Part shown: piece by piece, positions 29,523-53,063 of the stretch | How the letters are laid out: every line of letters begins with the position of its first letter | Position numbering within the stretch: position 1 is the stretch's first letter | Assembly: GCA_011620275.1 (NCBI GenBank) | Contig: WOZK01000012.1 | Coordinates: 31,665-95,664 of the forward strand | Length of the DNA: 64,000 nt | DNA from: Candidatus Omnitrophota bacterium | GTDB lineage: Bacteria > Omnitrophota > Gorgyraeia > Gygaellales > Profunditerraquicolaceae | Direction of reading: 5' to 3' | Notes under the pieces: generated by a model | The model's database searches: none | What the model saw: only the letters and a program-made list of their open reading frames with translations | Told to the model about the DNA's origin: nothing | Translations under genes and position numbers: made by a program

Positions 29523-29545
29523 GCCTTCCTTAAAAACTCGTCAGA

Positions 29546-29745
29546 CGGTTACGGTAACGAAACCCGTTTCGCTTCCCGGTCACGGTTACCAACAAGACCC
29601 GACCTATCTTTCCTCCCCTCGATGAGGAGGATTAAGGAGGGATGGCAATCAATGCGCTGTTTGACAAGTTTTTTACAGCGCACTGTGTCCGCCGCTGAAG
29701 CGCCGGCGAGACTAAAACAAGGGTATCGTAACCGTTACCGACAGA
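29546..29745. repeat. conserved ~200-bp non-coding element, copy 1, immediately upstream of hisH
   Basis: Blocks shared with 51233-51462: CGGTTACGGTAACGAAA, GTTTTTTA(A)ACAGC(G/A)CAC(T)GTGTCCGCC, ACTAAAACAAGG and GACGAT; element ends ~20 nt before the hisH ATG. Confidence 0.7.
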
Positions 29746-29748
29746 CGA

Positions 29749-30345
29749 TTAATCAATCACTCCCTTACTGGAAGGAACACCCTTCCTGCGCGGGTCGATT
29801 TCCACAGCAGAACGCAAAGCCAACCCCAGCGCCTTGAACGCCGGTTCGAGCGTGCTATGCAAGTCGCTGCCGGCACCGTTTATCTTCACGTGCAGATTCA
29901 TACCTAACTGTTTGGCGAAGGCGTCCAGAAAATGCTCCGCGTCACCGACACCATAGCCCTCGCTGCCTTCCGGCTTTAGCCCCTGGGGGGAAATAATTTT
30001 AAAATACCCGCGGCCGCAGATATCTGCGGCGACGTCGGCCGACGCTTCCTCCATAGGAACCGAAGCCCACCCTATGCGCCTGATGCCGCATTTATCGCCC
30101 AACGCTTCCTTGAAAGCCTTGCCCAGCGCGATGCCGACATCTTCGTTAGTATGGTGTATATCGACCTTGAAATCGCCTTTAGCCGATATCTCCAGGTCGA
30201 ACATCCCCCAGAACGAAAACAACTCCAGAAGGTGGTTCAGCAATCCTATACCGGTCTCTATTTTGCTTTCGCCGGAGCCGTCTATCTCCAGTTTAAGACC
30301 GATATCGGTTTCCTTCGTGGTCCTTTTGATTTCCGCATTACGCAT
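29749..30345 (-). CDS. hisB: imidazoleglycerol-phosphate dehydratase
   Basis: 198 aa; IGPD family sequence containing HHTNEDVGIALG. Confidence 0.92.
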   Translation of the reverse strand: MRNAEIKRTTKETDIGLKLEIDGSGESKIETGIGLLNHLLELFSFWGMFDLEISAKGDFKVDIHHTNEDVGIALGKAFKEALGDKCGIRRIGWASVPMEEASADVAADICGRGYFKIISPQGLKPEGSEGYGVGDAEHFLDAFAKQLGMNLHVKINGAGSDLHSTLEPAFKALGLALRSAVEIDPRRKGVPSSKGVID

Positions 30346-36022: not shown

Positions 36023-36219
36023 AAATACCTCCGCGTTCCTGCGGCATTAATAAAAATTAACCATTATCTTGATTAAGGTTTGTAAACTAAGGGCGTTTAC
36101 CCTAACGTCCCGCACAGCAAGACGTTATTATAACCCACCCCTTTTACCGTGTCAAACAAATAATCCCCCCCCTGGGGGCCCCCTGGGGCCGTTTCAAAAT
36201 CACCTGCGATACGGCAAAT

Positions 36220-43898: not shown

Positions 43899-44013
43899 CT
43901 CTACTACCTCCTTTTGCCTGTTGAAAAACCATACCGGAGGCTTCCGGCTCCCGGGGCCTTGTCCGGGTAAAATTTAGAAAATAGATTATCACGTTTCGGA
44001 AATGGAGTCAATT

Positions 44014-44036
44014 AAAAAAAACCGGTTTGTACCGGG
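44014..44036 (-). terminator. rho-independent terminator downstream of the small ORF pair
   Basis: Minus-strand hairpin CCGGT-ACAA-ACCGG followed by a 7-U tract. Confidence 0.55.
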
Positions 44037-47577: not shown

Positions 47578-48474
47578 TCACCTGCCTTTTACGGCCGCCG
47601 GGATGAATTCCATGCTGATGTCCGCCGATTTAACGTTATGGGTGAGCGCTCCCACGGAGATGATATCCGCGCCGGCGGCGGCGTAAGCGCGAATATTGGA
47701 AAGAGTGATGCCTCCAGACACCTCCAGCAAAGGAACGCGCCGTTCCGCCTTGCCGCGCAGCCGCACCGCTTTACGGATATCGACGGGCTTCATATTATCG
47801 AGCATAATGATGTCCGGCTTAAGCGAAAGCGCCATGCGGAAGTCATCCAGGTTCTCTACTTCTATCTCTATCTTCATCTTTCCGTGCGGGAACCTGTTCC
47901 TTAGCTTTGAGAACGCGCGGCTCAAATAAAGGTGTTTGCCGCTTTTCGGGCAGGCCGCCAGATGATTGTCCTTTACCAGCACCATTTCATCCAGGCAGCT
48001 GCGGTGGTTATCCGCCCCTCCCGTACGCACGGCGTATTTCTGCAAGGAGCGCAAACCGGGGAAAGTCTTGCGCGTATCCACCACTTTGACGCCGTAGGAT
48101 TTCACTTTGTCGGCGTAAGCGCGAGCCTGAGTGGCTATCCCGGAAAGCATCCCTACGAAATTTATAGCGACACGCTCTCCTTTTAGCAGTGAACGCGCCT
48201 TTCCGCTCACGCGTGCCAGTTCTGCGCCGCGTCGGACTTTTTCGCCTTCTCTGCGCAGCTTCCTAAAGGAGACTTTTTCGTCAACCTGCCTGAATACCTC
48301 GGCGGCGATGTCCAGACCGCAGACCACCATCTCCCGGACGGCGATGAAAGAAGCCGAAGCTGAACAGCCTCCGGGCACGAAAAAATCCGTGGTGACGTCA
48401 CCGCTGCCGATATCCTCGCGCAGCGCCTGCGACACTATCCTGCCGTATTCTATATTATTTCCGCAATTCTTCAT
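47578..48474 (-). CDS. nadC: nicotinate-nucleotide diphosphorylase (carboxylating)
   Basis: 298 aa; quinolinate PRTase family with MLDNM motif and C-terminal SVGALTHNV. Confidence 0.88.
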   Translation of the reverse strand: MKNCGNNIEYGRIVSQALREDIGSGDVTTDFFVPGGCSASASFIAVREMVVCGLDIAAEVFRQVDEKVSFRKLRREGEKVRRGAELARVSGKARSLLKGERVAINFVGMLSGIATQARAYADKVKSYGVKVVDTRKTFPGLRSLQKYAVRTGGADNHRSCLDEMVLVKDNHLAACPKSGKHLYLSRAFSKLRNRFPHGKMKIEIEVENLDDFRMALSLKPDIIMLDNMKPVDIRKAVRLRGKAERRVPLLEVSGGITLSNIRAYAAAGADIISVGALTHNVKSADISMEFIPAAVKGR

Positions 48475-51205
48475 ATATTCCGCGGTACCTTTCCAGGGTC
48501 TCTTTCAACTCCCGCAGTCTATCTTTCTCTTTATCCACAATTTCCCCGGGGGCTTTGTCTGCGAAACCAGGTTTTGCCAGCATAGCTTCCTTGCCGCGGA
48601 TCGCCCCGGATGTATTATCAATTTTAACGCGGAGTTTTTCCCTTTGCGCCGCGATATCCACTATACCTACGAGCAAAACGCTCACATGCATACCCCCGGC
48701 TACTGCGGCAACCGAAGACGGTTTATGATTGTACCCTTTCTCAATGCCAAGAACGGATATTCTCGCCAGACGGCGTATGACCGCGGAAAGCGGCTTCAGC
48801 GCCTCTGCCTGCGCCTTTGAAGAAGCAGCTATGACCGCGGGTACCTCCTTCTGCGGCGGAATGTCGAGTTCCTGACGGATGTTGCGCACAGCGGCGATCA
48901 CGGCAAAGATATCCTCCATGAAAGTCTCCGCCTTGCGGTCCTGGCGCAAATCCTTGTGTGCCGGCCAGGCGCGCGTCATAACTGAATCGCCCACGTGCGG
49001 AAGTTTCTGCCAAATCTCCTCGGTGATAAACGGCATGAAAGGATGCAAGGCGGCCAGGAAGTTCTCCAGCACACGCAGCATCACCGACTGGTTCTGCCGA
49101 TCCTTCATATCAAGCTTGATTATCTCCAGGTACCAGTCGCAGTATTCCTTCCAGAAAAAAGAATACAGCAGGTTGGCCGCCTCGTTGAAGCGGAAAGCGG
49201 AGAGCGAGGCATCGGTTTTCTTCAGGGTGACGGAAAGCCTGCTCAATATCCATCGGTTGACCGCGCTTAAATCCTTTTCAGAAGAAACGGCGGACGCCTC
49301 AACCGCCCCTGTTCCCGGCTCAAGGTTCATCATCACCAGGCGCGAGGCGTTCCATATCTTGTTGGCGAAATTTCTGCCCTGCTCGAACCTCTCCCTGGAA
49401 AGATAAACGTCCTGCCCTTGGGCTGTGATGGCGATCAGGCTGAAACGCAGGGCGTCGGTGCCGTATTGCGAAATTATTTCCAGCGGGTCGATGCTGTTTC
49501 CCAGGGATTTGGACATCTTCCTGCCGTCCTTATCCCTGACCGTGCCGTGTATATAGACGTCCCTGAACGGTATGTCCCCCATGAACTCAAACCCGGCCAT
49601 AATCATGCGCGCCACCCAGAAAAAGATGATCTCAGAGGCGGTGGTCAGGGTATCGGTGGGATAGAAATACGCCAGTTCTTTCTTTTTCTTCTTCTCTTCT
49701 TTTCCCTGCCCGAACGGCCAGCCGAAAGTGGCGAACGGCCAGAGCCAAGAAGAAAACCAGGTGTCAAGCACATCCTCATCCTGACGCAGCTGCGCGTTTC
49801 CGCAGACCGGGCATTTCTCCGGTTTAGTCCCGGATACAATGACCCCCTCTTCCTCATTATTTTTCCGGCCGGAATCTCTGTCCGCGCGCGATGGACTATC
49901 GGCTGTGGATTGTTCCTGCCGCCTAAGGCAGCTGTCGCAGTAATAAACCGGCAGTCGGTGCCCCCACCAGATCTGCCGTGAGATACACCAATCCTGAATG
50001 TTCTCCATCCAGTTCAGATAGACCTTGGTCCAGCGCTTCGGATAAAACTTGATTCTACCCTTTTTCACCGCTTCTATGGCAGGCAAAGAAAGCGGCTTCA
50101 TCTTCACGAACCACTGCCTGGAAAGATACGGTTCGATTATGGTGTGGCAGCGATAACAGTGCCCGGCGGAAAGCTTATGCGGTTCTATCTTCTCCAGCAG
50201 GCCTTTTTCCTTCATATCTTCCAGCACGACTTCCCTGGCCTCAAACCTGTCCATCCCGGAATACTCTCCGGCAAGGTCGTTCATCCTGCCGTCCGGGTGC
50301 ATCACGTTGATGAATTGCAGTCCGTGCTTTCTGCCCATACGGTAATCGTTGGGATCGTGCGCCGGGGTGACCTTGACCGCTCCGGTACCGAAGCCGGCGT
50401 CCACTTCCGAATCGGCGATAATCTTTATCTCTCTGCCGGCCAAAGGCAGCAACAGCGTTTTTCCGACGAGTTTCTTATAGCGCCTGTCATTTGGATTGAC
50501 CGCGACCGCGGTATCGCCGAGCATGGTCTCCGGCCTGGTAGTGGCAACCGTCACGGACCGCGAAGGGTCGTCCTTCAAGGGATATTTGAGATAATAAAGA
50601 TGCGCGTCCAGCTCATGGTGCGGGGCCTCTTCGTCTGCGAGGGCGGTCTGGCATCGCGGGCACCAGTTGATAATGTATTCGCCGCGGTAAACAAGGCCTT
50701 TTTCGTAAAGCCGGATGAAGACCTCCGTGACCGCCCTGGAATATCCCTCATCCATGGTGAACCGCGCGCGCGTCCAGTCACAGGATGCGCCGAGTTTCCT
50801 GAGCTGTTTTATAATAGTTGAGCCGTACTGTTCCTTCCACTGCCAGACGCGCTCCAGAAATTTCTCGCGGCCAAGGTCCTGCCTGCGCAGTCCTTCCTTC
50901 ATCAGCATCTTCTCCACCACGTTCTGGGTGGCGATGCCGGCGTGGTCTGTCCCGGGCATCCAGAGGCTCGACTTCCCTTTCATACGCTGCTGCCGGATAA
51001 GTATATCCTGAATGGTATCGTTGAGGGCGTGCCCCATATGCAGAATACCAGTGACATTGGGAGGAGGAATAACGATGGAAAAAGGTTTCTTCCCGGAATC
51101 CGCCGAAACCCCGAAATAACCATTATCTTCCCAGAACTTATACCATTTGTCCTCGGTATCCGCGGGATTGTAATGAGTGGGTATCTCGTTTATATTTTCT
51201 TCCAT
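48455..51205 (-). CDS. valS: valine--tRNA ligase
   Basis: 916 aa; HMGH (HIGH-type) and KMSKS class I motifs, CP1 editing domain and C-terminal coiled coil. Confidence 0.96.
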   Translation of the reverse strand: MEENINEIPTHYNPADTEDKWYKFWEDNGYFGVSADSGKKPFSIVIPPPNVTGILHMGHALNDTIQDILIRQQRMKGKSSLWMPGTDHAGIATQNVVEKMLMKEGLRRQDLGREKFLERVWQWKEQYGSTIIKQLRKLGASCDWTRARFTMDEGYSRAVTEVFIRLYEKGLVYRGEYIINWCPRCQTALADEEAPHHELDAHLYYLKYPLKDDPSRSVTVATTRPETMLGDTAVAVNPNDRRYKKLVGKTLLLPLAGREIKIIADSEVDAGFGTGAVKVTPAHDPNDYRMGRKHGLQFINVMHPDGRMNDLAGEYSGMDRFEAREVVLEDMKEKGLLEKIEPHKLSAGHCYRCHTIIEPYLSRQWFVKMKPLSLPAIEAVKKGRIKFYPKRWTKVYLNWMENIQDWCISRQIWWGHRLPVYYCDSCLRRQEQSTADSPSRADRDSGRKNNEEEGVIVSGTKPEKCPVCGNAQLRQDEDVLDTWFSSWLWPFATFGWPFGQGKEEKKKKKELAYFYPTDTLTTASEIIFFWVARMIMAGFEFMGDIPFRDVYIHGTVRDKDGRKMSKSLGNSIDPLEIISQYGTDALRFSLIAITAQGQDVYLSRERFEQGRNFANKIWNASRLVMMNLEPGTGAVEASAVSSEKDLSAVNRWILSRLSVTLKKTDASLSAFRFNEAANLLYSFFWKEYCDWYLEIIKLDMKDRQNQSVMLRVLENFLAALHPFMPFITEEIWQKLPHVGDSVMTRAWPAHKDLRQDRKAETFMEDIFAVIAAVRNIRQELDIPPQKEVPAVIAASSKAQAEALKPLSAVIRRLARISVLGIEKGYNHKPSSVAAVAGGMHVSVLLVGIVDIAAQREKLRVKIDNTSGAIRGKEAMLAKPGFADKAPGEIVDKEKDRLRELKETLERYRGIYEELRK

Positions 51206-51232
51206 GAATAATCTCCGGGTGAAAACCGGCTG

Positions 51233-51462
51233 CGGTTACGGTAACGAAAGACGATTGACGATACGGGCATCGTAACCGGGAAACGATAGACGAGTTTTAA
51301 TATCGGTAACGGTTACGGATATAGTCAACCGATCTTCCCTCTCTAATAGCGTACTTCTCCCCAGTTCAGTAAGTTTTTTAAACAGCACACTTTGTCCGCC
51401 ATTGAATCGTTGACGACACTAAAACAAGGACAGCGCAACCGAAAGACGATATAAACAACCGG
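51233..51462. repeat. conserved ~230-bp non-coding element, copy 2, immediately upstream of valS
   Basis: Homologous to 29546-29745; begins with CGGTTACGGTAACGAAA about 27 nt before the valS ATG and contains additional CGGTAACGGTTACG and CGTAACCGG motifs. Confidence 0.7.
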
Positions 51463-51485
51463 ATTTTGTAACTTCTGCACTCTGA

Positions 51486-53063
51486 TTAACCGCGGGAGGA
51501 TCTATCCTTAAGCAGTTTATATTCCACGCTGTCCGACAAAGCCTGCCAGGAGGCCTCGATTATGTTCTCTGAAACGCCGATCGTATTCCAGGTATCCCCG
51601 GCGTCCTGCGACTGTATAAGAACGCGCACCTTGGCGGCGGTACCGTCTTTTTCATTAAGCACGCGCACCTTGAAATCGCTCAAGTGCATGCGCGCAAGAT
51701 CGGGATAGAAATCCCGAAGCGCCTTGCGCAGGGCGTTATCCAGGGCGTTGACCGGGCCGTCGCCCTCGGCTGCGGTATACTCCCGGGAACCCTTGACTTT
51801 TATCTTTATAATCGCCTCGGTGGTTATTTTTCCATCCTGCCTGCGCTCCACCACCACCCTGAAACCCTCCAACTCGAAGAATTTCTCGTGTTTCTTTATT
51901 TCCCTCTGCAGCAGCAGCTCGAAAGAGGCTTCCGCGGCCTCGAACTGGTATCCTTTATGCTCCAGTTCCTGGACCAGTTTAAGTAACTTCTTCGTCTTGG
52001 GGTCGTTTTTGGTCAAGTCCATTTCCAGGTCGCGGGCGCGCAGCAATATCCCGGTCTTTCCCCCGAGCTCCGAAAGCAGCATCCTGCGCCTGTTCCCGAC
52101 GAGCGCCGGATCGATGTGCTCGTAAGTAGCGCAGTTTTTCATCACCGCGTTAATGTGCACCCCGCCCTTGTGCGCGAACGCCGAGATTCCGCTGTAAGGC
52201 TGGTCGTTCCTGATCGTCATATTGCTGATCTCGCTGACAAAATGAGACAATCTGGTCAGTCCCTTCAATTTATCGGCGGGAAGACAGCGCACTCCCATTT
52301 TCAACTGCAGATTAGCGATAATCGGGATAAGATCGGCGTTGCCGCAGCGCTCGCCGTAACCGTTTATAGTCCCCTGCGCCATAACCGCTCCCGCTTCCAC
52401 CGCGGCCAAGGAATTGGCCACCGCCAACCCCCCGTCATTATGACAATGTATTCCGATATCGGCCTTCAACAGTGATTTCACTTCCTTAACCACGCGCAAG
52501 ACCTCCGAAGAGAGCGTTCCACCGTTGGTATCGCAGAGCACCAGCACGGAGGCGCCGGCATCTCTGGCGGTCAACAGGCACTGCAATGCGTAATCGCGGT
52601 TGGCTTTGTAGGCGTCAAAGAAATGTTCCGCGTCATAAAAAACGGCCAAGCCTTTGCCGCGCAGAAAAGACACCGAATCCCTGATCATGGATAGATTCTC
52701 TTCCGGCGTTGTCTTCAGCACGTCTCTGATGTGCAGGTCCCAGGTCTTACCGAACAGCGCGGCGCAGGAAACACCGCTCTTGAGGAACGCCTTGAGGTTG
52801 GCGTCCTGCGATGCCTTTATGCCCGGCCGGCGGGTGGAGCCGAAAGCCACCAGTTCCGCGCAGGCAAGTCTGCGTTTAGACATCTTCAAAAAAAACTCCA
52901 TGTCCTTGGGATTGGACCCCGGCCAGCCTCCTTCGATATAATGGATGCCCGCCTTATCCAGTTCCATGGCGATGGCGAGTTTATCAGAAACGGTGTAGGA
53001 AATACCTTCCCCCTGAGACCCATCCCGCAAAGTAGTGTCGTAAACAGCCACGCTGTTCTTCAT
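51486..53063 (-). CDS. citramalate synthase / 2-isopropylmalate synthase family enzyme (CimA-like)
   Basis: 525 aa; DRE-TIM YDTTLRDGSQ N-terminus and C-terminal LeuA-dimer regulatory domain; long CimA-type size; lies in a threonine/isoleucine gene block. Confidence 0.65.
   Translation of the reverse strand: MKNSVAVYDTTLRDGSQGEGISYTVSDKLAIAMELDKAGIHYIEGGWPGSNPKDMEFFLKMSKRRLACAELVAFGSTRRPGIKASQDANLKAFLKSGVSCAALFGKTWDLHIRDVLKTTPEENLSMIRDSVSFLRGKGLAVFYDAEHFFDAYKANRDYALQCLLTARDAGASVLVLCDTNGGTLSSEVLRVVKEVKSLLKADIGIHCHNDGGLAVANSLAAVEAGAVMAQGTINGYGERCGNADLIPIIANLQLKMGVRCLPADKLKGLTRLSHFVSEISNMTIRNDQPYSGISAFAHKGGVHINAVMKNCATYEHIDPALVGNRRRMLLSELGGKTGILLRARDLEMDLTKNDPKTKKLLKLVQELEHKGYQFEAAEASFELLLQREIKKHEKFFELEGFRVVVERRQDGKITTEAIIKIKVKGSREYTAAEGDGPVNALDNALRKALRDFYPDLARMHLSDFKVRVLNEKDGTAAKVRVLIQSQDAGDTWNTIGVSENIIEASWQALSDSVEYKLLKDRSSRG

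What the first reader, a model, noticed from the sequence alone, without database searches (positions are those of the whole stretch)
51233..51462. Copy 2 of the conserved non-coding element, forming the valS 5' leader, with additional GGTTACGGTAACG-type motifs
This is the same element as at 29546-29745, here 230 bp long between the cimA-like gene and valS. It adds extra internal copies of the half-site motif (CGGTTACGGTAACG at 51233, CGTAACCGG at 51266, CGGTAACGGTTACG at 51288). A plausible sigma70 promoter sits inside it in gene sense (TTACTG-N18-TATTAG). The positional conservation relative to the start codon, about 27 nt before the valS ATG, argues for a leader/regulatory role rather than random repetition.
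Basis: seen in the sequence. Interest (0 to 1): 0.6.

Follow-up and report, generated by a model that had tools for sequence, protein, structure and literature searches.

The report
Mobile intergenic repeat inserted before valS
The 280-bp spacer in front of valS is one or two copies of a small non-coding repeat with inverted-repeat ends (a MITE-like mobile element) that is scattered through a few Omnitrophota genomes and is missing at this spot in the closest relative, so it is an insertion and not a dedicated valS control region.

Summary
The repeat is real. Copy 2 (window 51206-51487, minus strand) shares a 70-nt core and a 17-nt 3' motif with copy 1 (29534-29748); the local alignment scores 66 against 18±2.4 for shuffles. 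It is not a valS leader. In the nearest relative (ValS 83% identical) cimA and valS are 19 bp apart. A 66% relative has an unrelated 126-bp spacer. The hisB-hisH site of copy 1 is 0-6 bp in relatives at 69-73% identity. Relatives carry family members at other sites (upstream of recA and of the H+-PPase gene) that are empty in the window, and one copy lies antisense to its neighbours. Elements have imperfect terminal inverted repeats built from GGTWAC hexamers. They contain a 26-nt hairpin (GTCTCGCC-N11-GGCGGAC) that can be arrayed, and their interiors are interchangeable. TTAA lies at 12 of 18 element or module boundaries (1.7% expected). Copy 2 is a degenerate composite of two units sharing a TTAA. 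No Rfam family, terminator, conserved ORF, plasmid or phage match was found. Best reading: an undescribed TTAA-flanked, MITE-like mosaic repeat family of Candidatus Omnitrophota, co-transcribed passively. This is an ordinary kind of element and of low-to-moderate interest.

The parts
51486..51489 (-). TTAA at the left (cimA-side) boundary, overlapping the cimA stop codon TAA (51486-51488)
   Evidence: the relative has GGTTGA here and no element
51451..51487 (-). Module M0 (AATCAGAGTGCAGAAGTTACAAAATCCGGTTGTTTAT), homologous to AATCGGAGCGCAGAATTCCCGAATGGCGAGTATTA in L121 and L124
   Evidence: sequence comparison by eye
51428..51450 (-). 5' inverted-repeat arm of unit A (ATCGTCTTTCGGTTGCGCTGTCC), degenerate and lacking one hexamer
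   Evidence: alignment A1; 5' profile hit at 51450-51394 with E=2.8e-14
51394..51429 (-). CCTTGTTTTAG followed by hairpin H (GTGTCGTC-AACGATTCAAT-GGCGGAC), the most conserved module of the family
51371..51393 (-). Start of interior module M3a (AAAGTGTGCTGTTTAAAAAACTT), shared with copy 1 and L002; the rest of the interior (51324-51370) is diverged
51299..51328 (-). sigma-70-like site TTGACT-18-GATATT lying over the 3' arm of unit A; a possible accidental outward promoter for valS
   Evidence: 9 of 12 matches; it resembles the conserved H+-PPase promoter TTGACT-17-GATAAT; no equivalent in copy 1
51301..51323 (-). 3' inverted-repeat arm of unit A (TATATCCGTAACCGTTACCGATA)
   Evidence: window 51318-51295, E=0.02
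51297..51300 (-). TTAA at the junction between unit A and unit B
51265..51296 (-). Unit B 5' arm (AACTCGTCTATCGTTTCCCGGTTACGATGCCC), the same terminus as the L006 left end and the reverse complement of the copy 1 right end
51233..51264 (-). Unit B 3' part (GTATCGTCAATCGTCTTTCGTTACCGTAACCG), containing the 17-nt motif identical to copy 1
   Evidence: 3' profile hit at 51267-51213 with E=1.2e-10
51206..51232 (-). Tail CAGCCGGTTTTCACCCGGAGATTATTC. It may be homologous to the family tail ...GCCGGTATTTTAATGGCGG...GGCGGATAATAATTC and contains the valS Shine-Dalgarno GGAG (51213-51216). The right boundary of the insertion is uncertain within this stretch.
   Evidence: inference
29534..29748 (-). Copy 1, a 215-bp single unit between hisB and hisH with arms of about 29 nt (23 of 29 complementary), hairpin H, and interior module M3a. 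M3a includes the GTGCGCTGT/ACAGCGCA hairpin and the CCCTCCTTAAT...GGGGAGGAAAG motifs.
   Evidence: (MFE -94.9 kcal/mol, z=-6.5)
29749..29752 (-). TTAA flanking copy 1 on the left, overlapping the hisB stop codon
29530..29533 (-). TTAA flanking copy 1 on the right, followed by GGAAGGC and the hisH ATG. Removing the element and one TTAA gives GATTAAGGAAGGCATG, a normal tight gene junction.
   Evidence: inference

Best explanation
The cimA-valS spacer is occupied by a member of a lineage-specific family of small, non-coding, non-autonomous mobile repeats in Candidatus Omnitrophota. It is in fact two abutting and partly degenerate units. Each unit is about 140-300 bp long. It is bounded by imperfect terminal inverted repeats made of tandem GGTWAC/TCGTC-type hexamers and carries a conserved 26-nt hairpin. 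Its interior is interchangeable, and TTAA usually lies at both ends and at module junctions. The most likely mechanism (inferred) is cut-and-paste or copy-in insertion at TTAA, catalysed in trans by a transposase encoded elsewhere that binds the hexamer-repeat ends. Each insertion regenerates a TTAA on each side, which would invite further insertions next to the first and so produce mosaics such as copy 2. Recombination between copies would swap interiors and keep the arms homogeneous. At this locus the element landed on the TTAA formed by the cimA stop codon inside an otherwise tight operon. It is now transcribed passively as an intercistronic spacer. Any effect on valS would be a by-product of insertion and not a conserved regulatory design. 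Such effects could include a structured spacer, a possible accidental outward promoter (TTGACT-18-GATATT), or a replaced ribosome-binding region.
For: Filled versus empty sites: the cimA-valS spacer is 19 bp in L121/L122, whose ValS is 83% identical, with full synteny, and an unrelated 126 bp in L150. The hisB-hisH spacer is 0 bp in L146/L148 and 6 bp in L151, but is filled in the window and in L124. The converse also holds. L121 carries an element upstream of the H+-PPase gene and L124 carries one upstream of recA, while the window's orthologous spacers lack it. Flanking genes are unrelated, and the L006 copy lies antisense to its neighbours. Terminal inverted repeats: the copy 1 arms match at 23 of 29 positions. 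The 5'-arm profile hits the 3' arms in reverse complement (E=0.017-0.049), and the 3' profile hits the 5' arms (E=2.9e-4 to 0.014). TTAA lies at 12 of 18 boundaries, against 1.7% of 10-nt windows. Removing copy 1 and one TTAA restores a normal hisB-hisH junction. Mosaicism: the window and L124 have identical arms at the same site but different interiors. The arms are 43/44 and about 44/48 identical, whereas hisB third-codon positions are only 54% identical. The element is non-coding, because the small ORF shared by copies 1 and 2 is out of frame in L002. A short-read contig of the same strain breaks inside copy 2. The family was absent from 870 kb of unrelated DNA and from relatives at 73% identity or less.
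Against: No transposase with matching ends was found, and the syntenic Pfam annotations show only housekeeping genes. Target duplication is inferred from flanking TTAA and was not demonstrated with a pre-insertion allele from the same lineage. TTAA could instead be part of the element termini. Only about 8 distinct copies from 4-5 genomes were available, so copy number per genome is unknown. Arm conservation far above synonymous-site conservation, the lower sense-strand folding energy in 8 of 8 copies and the 6-of-7 co-orientation with genes could all reflect selection on a host-level or RNA-level function. The right boundary of copy 2 is ambiguous.
Confidence: 0.75

Rival explanations
1. The element is a cis-regulatory leader RNA (riboswitch, T-box or attenuator) that controls valS and hisH.
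For: It lies in gene sense directly upstream of two amino-acid-related genes, ending 27 and 22 nt before their ATGs. Copy 1 folds very stably, z=-6.5. The core is strongly conserved between the copies.
Against: It is absent from the orthologous valS and hisH junctions in relatives. It is present next to nusB, recA, H+-PPase and DUF1318 genes at variable distances, once in antisense. No Rfam hit appears even at E≤10. No terminator or antiterminator was predicted. Copy 2 folds no better than shuffles. Both sites lie inside operons where the ancestral state is direct gene adjacency.
Confidence: 0.04
2. The element is a host-domesticated structured intercistronic RNA, similar to REP/BIME or ERIC elements. 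Its hairpins would be selected because they stabilise, process or uncouple segments of polycistronic mRNAs. The repeat would spread by recombination as well as transposition and would be kept for function.
For: Six of 7 sites are co-oriented with the flanking genes. The sense strand has the lower folding energy in 8 of 8 copies. All 6 one-sided stem changes in hairpin H give G·U pairs on the sense strand. The arms are far more conserved than synonymous sites. REPs and MITEs are known to act as RNA elements (PMC3733652, PMC3184786).
Against: There are no double-sided compensatory changes in hairpin H, and pairing does not exceed the shuffle control. The orientation bias of 6 of 7 is not significant (p≈0.06). 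The arms carry conserved mismatches at the W positions, which suggests that sequence and not pairing is conserved. Sites turn over rapidly between close relatives. No expression data are available.
Confidence: 0.15
3. The GTWAC-N-GTWAC dyads are operator sites for a dimeric transcription factor, defining a regulon that includes valS and hisH.
For: The dyads GTTACNGTAAC and GTAACNGTTAC occur only in these two spacers in the 64 kb, four hits in total. They lie upstream of genes.
Against: The dyads are always embedded in the larger mosaic element together with non-dyad modules. They occur as inverted terminal arms. The sites are absent in orthologues, the neighbouring genes are functionally unrelated, and the locations are intra-operonic.
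Confidence: 0.04
4. The copies are independently transcribed small-RNA genes, forming a paralogous sRNA family.
For: The hairpin H and M3a core is 83-87% identical between this genome and an unrelated MAG locus, L002. Copy 1 is highly structured.
Against: No promoter or terminator brackets the conserved core. The interiors are interchangeable, and the M3a module is missing from most copies. The elements sit inside operons on the coding strand.
Confidence: 0.02

Closest known systems
Bacterial MITEs such as Correia/CREE (Neisseria), RUP (S. pneumoniae), Nezha (cyanobacteria) and Chunjie (Geobacter uraniireducens)
   Same: These are small (about 100-400 bp), non-coding and bounded by terminal inverted repeats with short flanking direct repeats. 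They are intergenic, often within operons, fold into long stable stem-loops in RNA, and show filled/empty site polymorphism between relatives. Some create promoters. These properties are defined in PMC3184786. All of them except a proven target-site duplication and promoter creation are seen here.
   Different: There is no sequence similarity to any of them (my own knowledge of their consensus sequences; no hits in plasmid or phage collections). The flank here is TTAA, whereas it is TA for Correia and RUP and 9 bp for Chunjie. The arms are hexamer-periodic (GGTWAC)n. The interiors are modular and exchangeable. No partner IS has been identified.
REP elements and BIMEs (GTAG- or CGTC-tagged palindromes mobilised by RAYT transposases)
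   Same: Hairpin H is REP-sized (26 nt, 7-bp G+C-rich stem) and occurs singly or in clusters of 3-4. It is combined with other motifs into mosaics and lies mostly between co-directional genes. G·T pairs suggest an RNA or single-stranded form (PMC3733652). TCGTC motifs recur at the arm starts.
   Different: The tag before the stem is NNAG (TTAG, GAAG, GGAG, AAAG), not GTAG. The CGTC motifs belong to long arms, not to 8-9-bp stems with 4-5-nt loops. H units are arrayed head-to-tail, which is rare or absent in REP families. The loop is 11 nt and conserved in sequence. No RAYT is known for this lineage.
T-box leaders of aminoacyl-tRNA synthetase genes
   Same: A structured non-coding region of about 200-300 nt lies directly upstream of an aaRS gene in the sense orientation.
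   Different: There is no match to the Rfam T-box model or to any other family at E≤10, and no terminator/antiterminator. The element is absent from orthologous valS genes, and the same element occurs next to non-aaRS genes.

Membership tests
MITE (miniature inverted-repeat transposable element) | Small size (under about 400 bp) with no transposase or conserved ORF | tested here: met
   Units are 140-300 bp. The small ORF shared by copies 1 and 2 is not in frame in L002.
MITE (miniature inverted-repeat transposable element) | Terminal inverted repeats | tested here: met
   The copy 1 arms match at 23 of 29 positions. The 5' and 3' arm profiles cross-match in reverse complement, E=2.9e-4 to 0.049. 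The repeats are imperfect, with conserved mismatches at the W positions.
MITE (miniature inverted-repeat transposable element) | Flanking target-site duplication | tested here: inconclusive
   TTAA lies on both sides of copy 1 and of L002, and at 12 of 18 boundaries against 1.7% expected. The left TTAA of copy 1 overlaps the native hisB stop codon. No pre-insertion allele from the same lineage is available to prove duplication.
MITE (miniature inverted-repeat transposable element) | Multiple dispersed copies with presence/absence polymorphism between relatives | tested here: met
   There are two copies in 64 kb. Three sites are polymorphic between the window and relatives at 83-85% identity, and one site is shared.
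MITE (miniature inverted-repeat transposable element) | A cognate IS or transposase with matching ends in the same genome | not testable with these tools
   Only about 64 kb plus short loci of relatives were accessible, and no transposase domains appear in the syntenic annotations.
REP/BIME | A 20-40 bp palindromic unit with a G+C-rich stem | tested here: met
   Hairpin H is 26 nt and 91.7% of its stem cells are paired across 12 units.
REP/BIME | An unpaired GTAG or CGTC tag at one end of the palindrome (PMC3733652) | tested here: not met
   The tags before H are TTAG, GAAG, GGAG, AAAG or AAGG, none of them GTAG. The CGTC motifs lie in the long arms and not next to H.
REP/BIME | Units in alternating (inverted) orientation within clusters | tested here: not met
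   The H arrays in L006 and L121 are head-to-tail with 3-nt spacers.
REP/BIME | An associated RAYT (Y1 transposase) gene | not testable with these tools
T-box / riboswitch leader | A match to the family covariance model | tested here: not met
   Rfam 15 gave no hit at gathering thresholds and none at E≤10 on 51150-51540. The only hit on copy 1 was a chance one at E=4.9.
T-box / riboswitch leader | Conserved upstream of orthologous genes, with an expression platform such as a terminator or Shine-Dalgarno sequestration | tested here: not met
   The orthologous spacer is 19 bp in the nearest relative. No terminator-like site was found in 51100-51600.

The most novel reading that the evidence does not exclude
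The family might be more than selfish DNA. It could be a previously undescribed kind of modular, TTAA-targeting element whose conserved hairpin H and M3a core is a functional RNA carried from site to site. M3a includes a CCUCCUUA anti-Shine-Dalgarno mimic paired with GGGGAGGAAAG. Such an RNA might be an intercistronic translation or processing module, or a guide or recognition RNA for its mobilising enzyme, and the host or the element might use it to rewire operons in Omnitrophota.
Probability: 0.08. Interest if true: 0.55.

Novelty: new member of a known kind. Interest (0 to 1): 0.27.

Why it matters
The result mainly corrects an annotation. A conspicuous conserved non-coding element upstream of valS and hisH is an interspersed mobile repeat and should not be treated as a riboswitch or leader candidate. 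It also documents, apparently for the first time, a repeat family in the little-studied, uncultivated phylum Omnitrophota; a full-text search for Omnitrophota with 'intergenic' and 'repeat' returned nothing relevant. The family inserts inside tight housekeeping operons, breaks short-read assemblies, and marks very recent genome change between relatives with roughly 83-85% identical ValS and HisB proteins. If its TTAA specificity and partner transposase were established, it would add a bacterial TTAA-targeting MITE system. Such a system could be useful for strain typing and for understanding operon tolerance to insertions.

Tried and rejected
- **Rfam:** scans at gathering and permissive thresholds found no family.
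- **Small-peptide idea:** the GTG...SLP* ORF present in both window copies was rejected because its frame is not kept in L002.
- **Sigma-54 promoter in GGCGGACA-N-AGTGNGCTG:** rejected by eye because the GG/GC spacing is wrong.
falls below the scan threshold.
- **Genome-collection scan with the core pattern:** returned one true hit (L002) and one chance hit inside an ORF (L001).
- **Metagenome scan with a relaxed pattern:** Almost all hits were chance matches, many in one conserved coding region, and only L006/L120 were real.
- **Two viral-contig scans:** 0 hits and 18 hits with no family similarity around them.
- **Plasmid and phage BLAST:** no match.
- **Covariation test on hairpin H:** no double-sided compensations, so RNA structure is not demonstrated.
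- **Exact insertion boundaries and TSD at the cimA-valS site:** could not be derived from the 83% relative because the spacers are too diverged.
- **Integron attC, CRISPR repeat, retron and group II intron readings:** considered and dropped. The flanking genes are syntenic core genes. There are no spacers or RT/Cas genes, and hairpin units are separated by only 3 nt.
- **Exact-protein lookup of HisB:** failed.

Full report
**Setting.** All genes around the finding are on the minus strand. valS is 48455..51205 (916 aa) and a cimA/leuA-like gene (HMGL-like + LeuA_dimer) is 51486..53063. The finding therefore lies in the 280-bp cimA-valS spacer and is read here on the minus strand. The sister copy lies between hisB (29749..30345) and hisH (ATG at 29523), inside the his operon. 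The organism is a Candidatus Omnitrophota bacterium. The best ValS matches after a 100% identical entry are an unnamed 83% protein, followed by many Omnitrophota MAG proteins at 67% or less.

- The core GGCGGACANAGTGNGCTGT occurs exactly twice in the window, with 0.16 expected.
- The two spacers share about 70 nt of core (CGGTT.CG....CCTTGTTTTAGT.TCG.C..CG.TTCA..GGCGGACA.AGTG.GCTG..TAAAAAACTT) and an identical 17-mer, TTTCGTTACCGTAACCG.
- The local alignment scores 66, against 18.0±2.4 (maximum 31) for 1000 dinucleotide shuffles.
- Profile HMMs built from family members find only these two copies in the 64 kb.

**It matches no known RNA family and does not encode a peptide.**
- Rfam 15 finds only tRNAs in the window and nothing at E≤10 in the valS spacer.
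- No terminator-like site was predicted.
- An ORF running from the GTG in the core to the TAA in the 3' motif exists in both window copies, but it is not in frame in the homologue L002.

**Homologues elsewhere.**
- A core-pattern scan of one genome per species returned one true homologue, L002. It is an Omnitrophota MAG, and the element lies between nusB and a PHP-domain gene.
- A metagenome scan returned mostly chance matches plus L006/L120. There the element lies on the strand opposite to both flanking genes, a DUF1318 gene and an HhH-GPD glycosylase gene.
- The remaining copies came from contigs of close relatives, fetched through ValS, HisB and SecDF homologues. They are L121/L122:17720-18011 (upstream of the H+-PPase gene), L122:1-215, L124:1100-1245 (upstream of recA) and L124:7632-7799 (between hisB and hisH).
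- No family similarity was found in 870 kb of unrelated metagenomic and viral loci. None was found in about 80 kb from Omnitrophota relatives at 73% identity or less, or in the plasmid and phage collections.

**Filled and empty sites: the decisive evidence.** Gene order is fully conserved between the window and L121/L122/L124.
- In L121/L122 (ValS 83% identical), cimA and valS are separated by 19 bp: TGA-TACATTTTCAGGACAGCTT-ATG. In the 66% relative L150 the spacer is 126 bp of unrelated sequence.
- hisB and hisH abut directly in L146/L148 (TAAATG) and are 6 bp apart in L151. The window and the 85% relative L124 both carry an element there.
- Conversely, the elements upstream of the H+-PPase gene in L121 and of recA in L124 are missing from the window's orthologous spacers. 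Those spacers still keep the conserved promoters TTGACT-17-GATAAT and TTGACA-17-TATAAT.
- Three of the four comparable sites therefore differ between genomes whose proteins are about 83-90% identical. A short-read contig of the window's own strain ends inside copy 2, as expected at a repeat.

**Anatomy.**
- Each unit starts with an arm such as TCGTCTRTCGGTWACGGTYACGATACCC and ends with GGGCTTCGTTACCGTARCCG(TYTGACGA).
- In copy 1 the two arms are complementary at 23 of 29 positions and close a fold of -94.9 kcal/mol, z=-6.5.
- The 5'-arm and 3'-arm profiles hit each other's targets in reverse complement, so the arms are terminal inverted repeats.
- The arms are hexamer-periodic. The W positions are systematically mismatched across the helix, which points to conserved sequence, such as protein binding sites, more than to conserved pairing.
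- After the 5' arm comes CTTGTTTTA and hairpin H (GTCTCGCC-N11-GGCGGAC). H also occurs in head-to-tail arrays of three or four units in L006 and L121.
- Interiors differ between copies. Copy 1, L002 and part of copy 2 carry module M3a. This module contains the GTGCGCTGT...ACAGCGCA hairpin and the CCCTCCTTAAT...GGGGAGGAAAG motifs. The other copies carry a second arm-like stem-loop instead.
- At the shared hisB-hisH site, the window and L124 have arms that are 43/44 and about 44/48 identical but quite different interiors. hisB itself is 79% identical, with 54% identity at third codon positions. This pattern indicates recombination or homogenisation among copies.

**TTAA boundaries.** TTAA lies at 12 of 18 element or module boundaries. 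Only 1.7% of 10-nt windows in this genome contain a TTAA.
- Copy 1 is TTAA-[215 bp]-TTAA. The left TTAA overlaps the native hisB stop codon. Removing the element and one TTAA gives GATTAAGGAAGGCATG, an ordinary tight junction with a Shine-Dalgarno sequence. This is an inference and not a demonstrated duplication.
- In copy 2 a TTAA overlaps the cimA stop codon (51486-51489). A second TTAA (51297-51300) separates unit A (M0, a degenerate 5' arm, hairpin H, M3a, 3' arm) from unit B (5' arm fused to a 3' part).
It also fits copy 2 not folding better than shuffled sequence, with z between -0.5 and -1.5.

**DNA-level or RNA-level selection?** The evidence is weak in both directions.
- The sense strand has the lower folding energy in all 8 copies.
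- Six of 7 sites are co-oriented with their neighbouring genes.
- All six one-sided changes in the H stem give G·U pairs on the sense strand.
- There is no double-sided compensation, however, and pairing does not exceed the shuffle control.
- I therefore treat an RNA-level role (mRNA stabilisation, processing or cistron uncoupling, as proposed for REPs and MITEs in PMC3733652 and PMC3184786) as a secondary possibility.

**Consequences at valS (inferred).** In relatives valS is almost directly joined to cimA and is presumably co-transcribed with it. The insertion adds a 280-nt spacer. The scan finds TTGACT-18-GATATT at 51328..51299 in gene sense. This site resembles the organism's own conserved H+-PPase promoter, so an accidental outward promoter is possible. 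Copy 1 has no equivalent site. The valS Shine-Dalgarno GGAG (51213-51216) lies in a tail that may itself derive from the element.

**Comparison with known kinds.**
- The element meets the MITE criteria of size, lack of coding capacity, terminal inverted repeats, dispersed copies and filled/empty polymorphism (definition in PMC3184786).
- The target-site duplication is likely but unproven, and the partner transposase is unknown.
- It resembles REP/BIME elements in its REP-sized hairpin and mosaic build. It fails the GTAG/CGTC tag criterion and the alternating-orientation criterion.
- It is not a T-box or riboswitch.
- I found no description of such repeats in Omnitrophota.

**Verdict.** It is a new family of an ordinary kind of element, a TTAA-flanked, mosaic, MITE-like repeat. 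Interest is low to moderate.

Noticed in passing
L121:17905-18011 (also L122); L006:2210-2313: Head-to-tail arrays of three or four copies of the 26-nt hairpin GTCTCGCC-N11-GGCGGRC, separated by only 3 nt, next to the inverted-repeat unit. In L121 a TTAA separates the array from the unit.
   Followed up: partly
window 36120-36155 (minus strand, upstream of recA) and 43985-44015 (minus strand, upstream of the H+-PPase gene): Canonical sigma-70 promoters (TTGACA-17-TATAAT and TTGACT-17-GATAAT) are conserved between the window and relatives at 83-85% identity while the surrounding spacer has diverged. This Omnitrophota lineage therefore uses standard -35/-10 promoters.
   Followed up: partly
L123:1-73 (Logan contig SRR10568503_66407), equal to window 51278-51206: A short-read contig of the same strain ends inside copy 2. 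The repeat family breaks assemblies, so copies are probably under-represented in MAGs.
   Followed up: no
window 29607-29650 (copy 1) and L002:700-790: The interior module contains CCCTCCTTAAT, which includes CCUCCUUA, the sequence of the 16S rRNA 3' tail (anti-Shine-Dalgarno). It is followed by one or two GGGGAGGAAAG Shine-Dalgarno-like motifs that are predicted to pair with it. Its function is unexplained.
   Followed up: no
L125:2085-2117: In a third relative with 85% identical HisB, the hisB stop codon is TAG and the following 30 nt (CAGTCTGCTGAAAAAGCCTCATCTGCGTTG) match neither the element nor hisH. The contig ends there, so the state of this site is unresolved.
   Followed up: no
L124:7700-7745; L122:140-165; L124:1165-1195: The alternative interior module is itself a pair of arm-like inverted repeats around a loop that contains TTAA or TTTAA (for example CGGTTACGGCTTTTAAGACGTAACC). 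It might be a minimal arms-only unit or a nested insertion site.
   Followed up: no
window 48455-48474: The valS 3' end overlaps the start of the downstream nadC-like (QRPTase) gene by 20 nt, as in the relatives. This shows how compact the operon is apart from the inserted spacer.
   Followed up: no
L121 versus L122, positions 1-2340: Two assemblies carrying the identical ValS protein (the 83% relative) differ completely upstream of position ~2340: thyA/PilZ/GPDH genes in one, pilin-like/T2SSK genes in the other. L122 carries an extra element copy at 1-215 in the divergent part.
   Followed up: no
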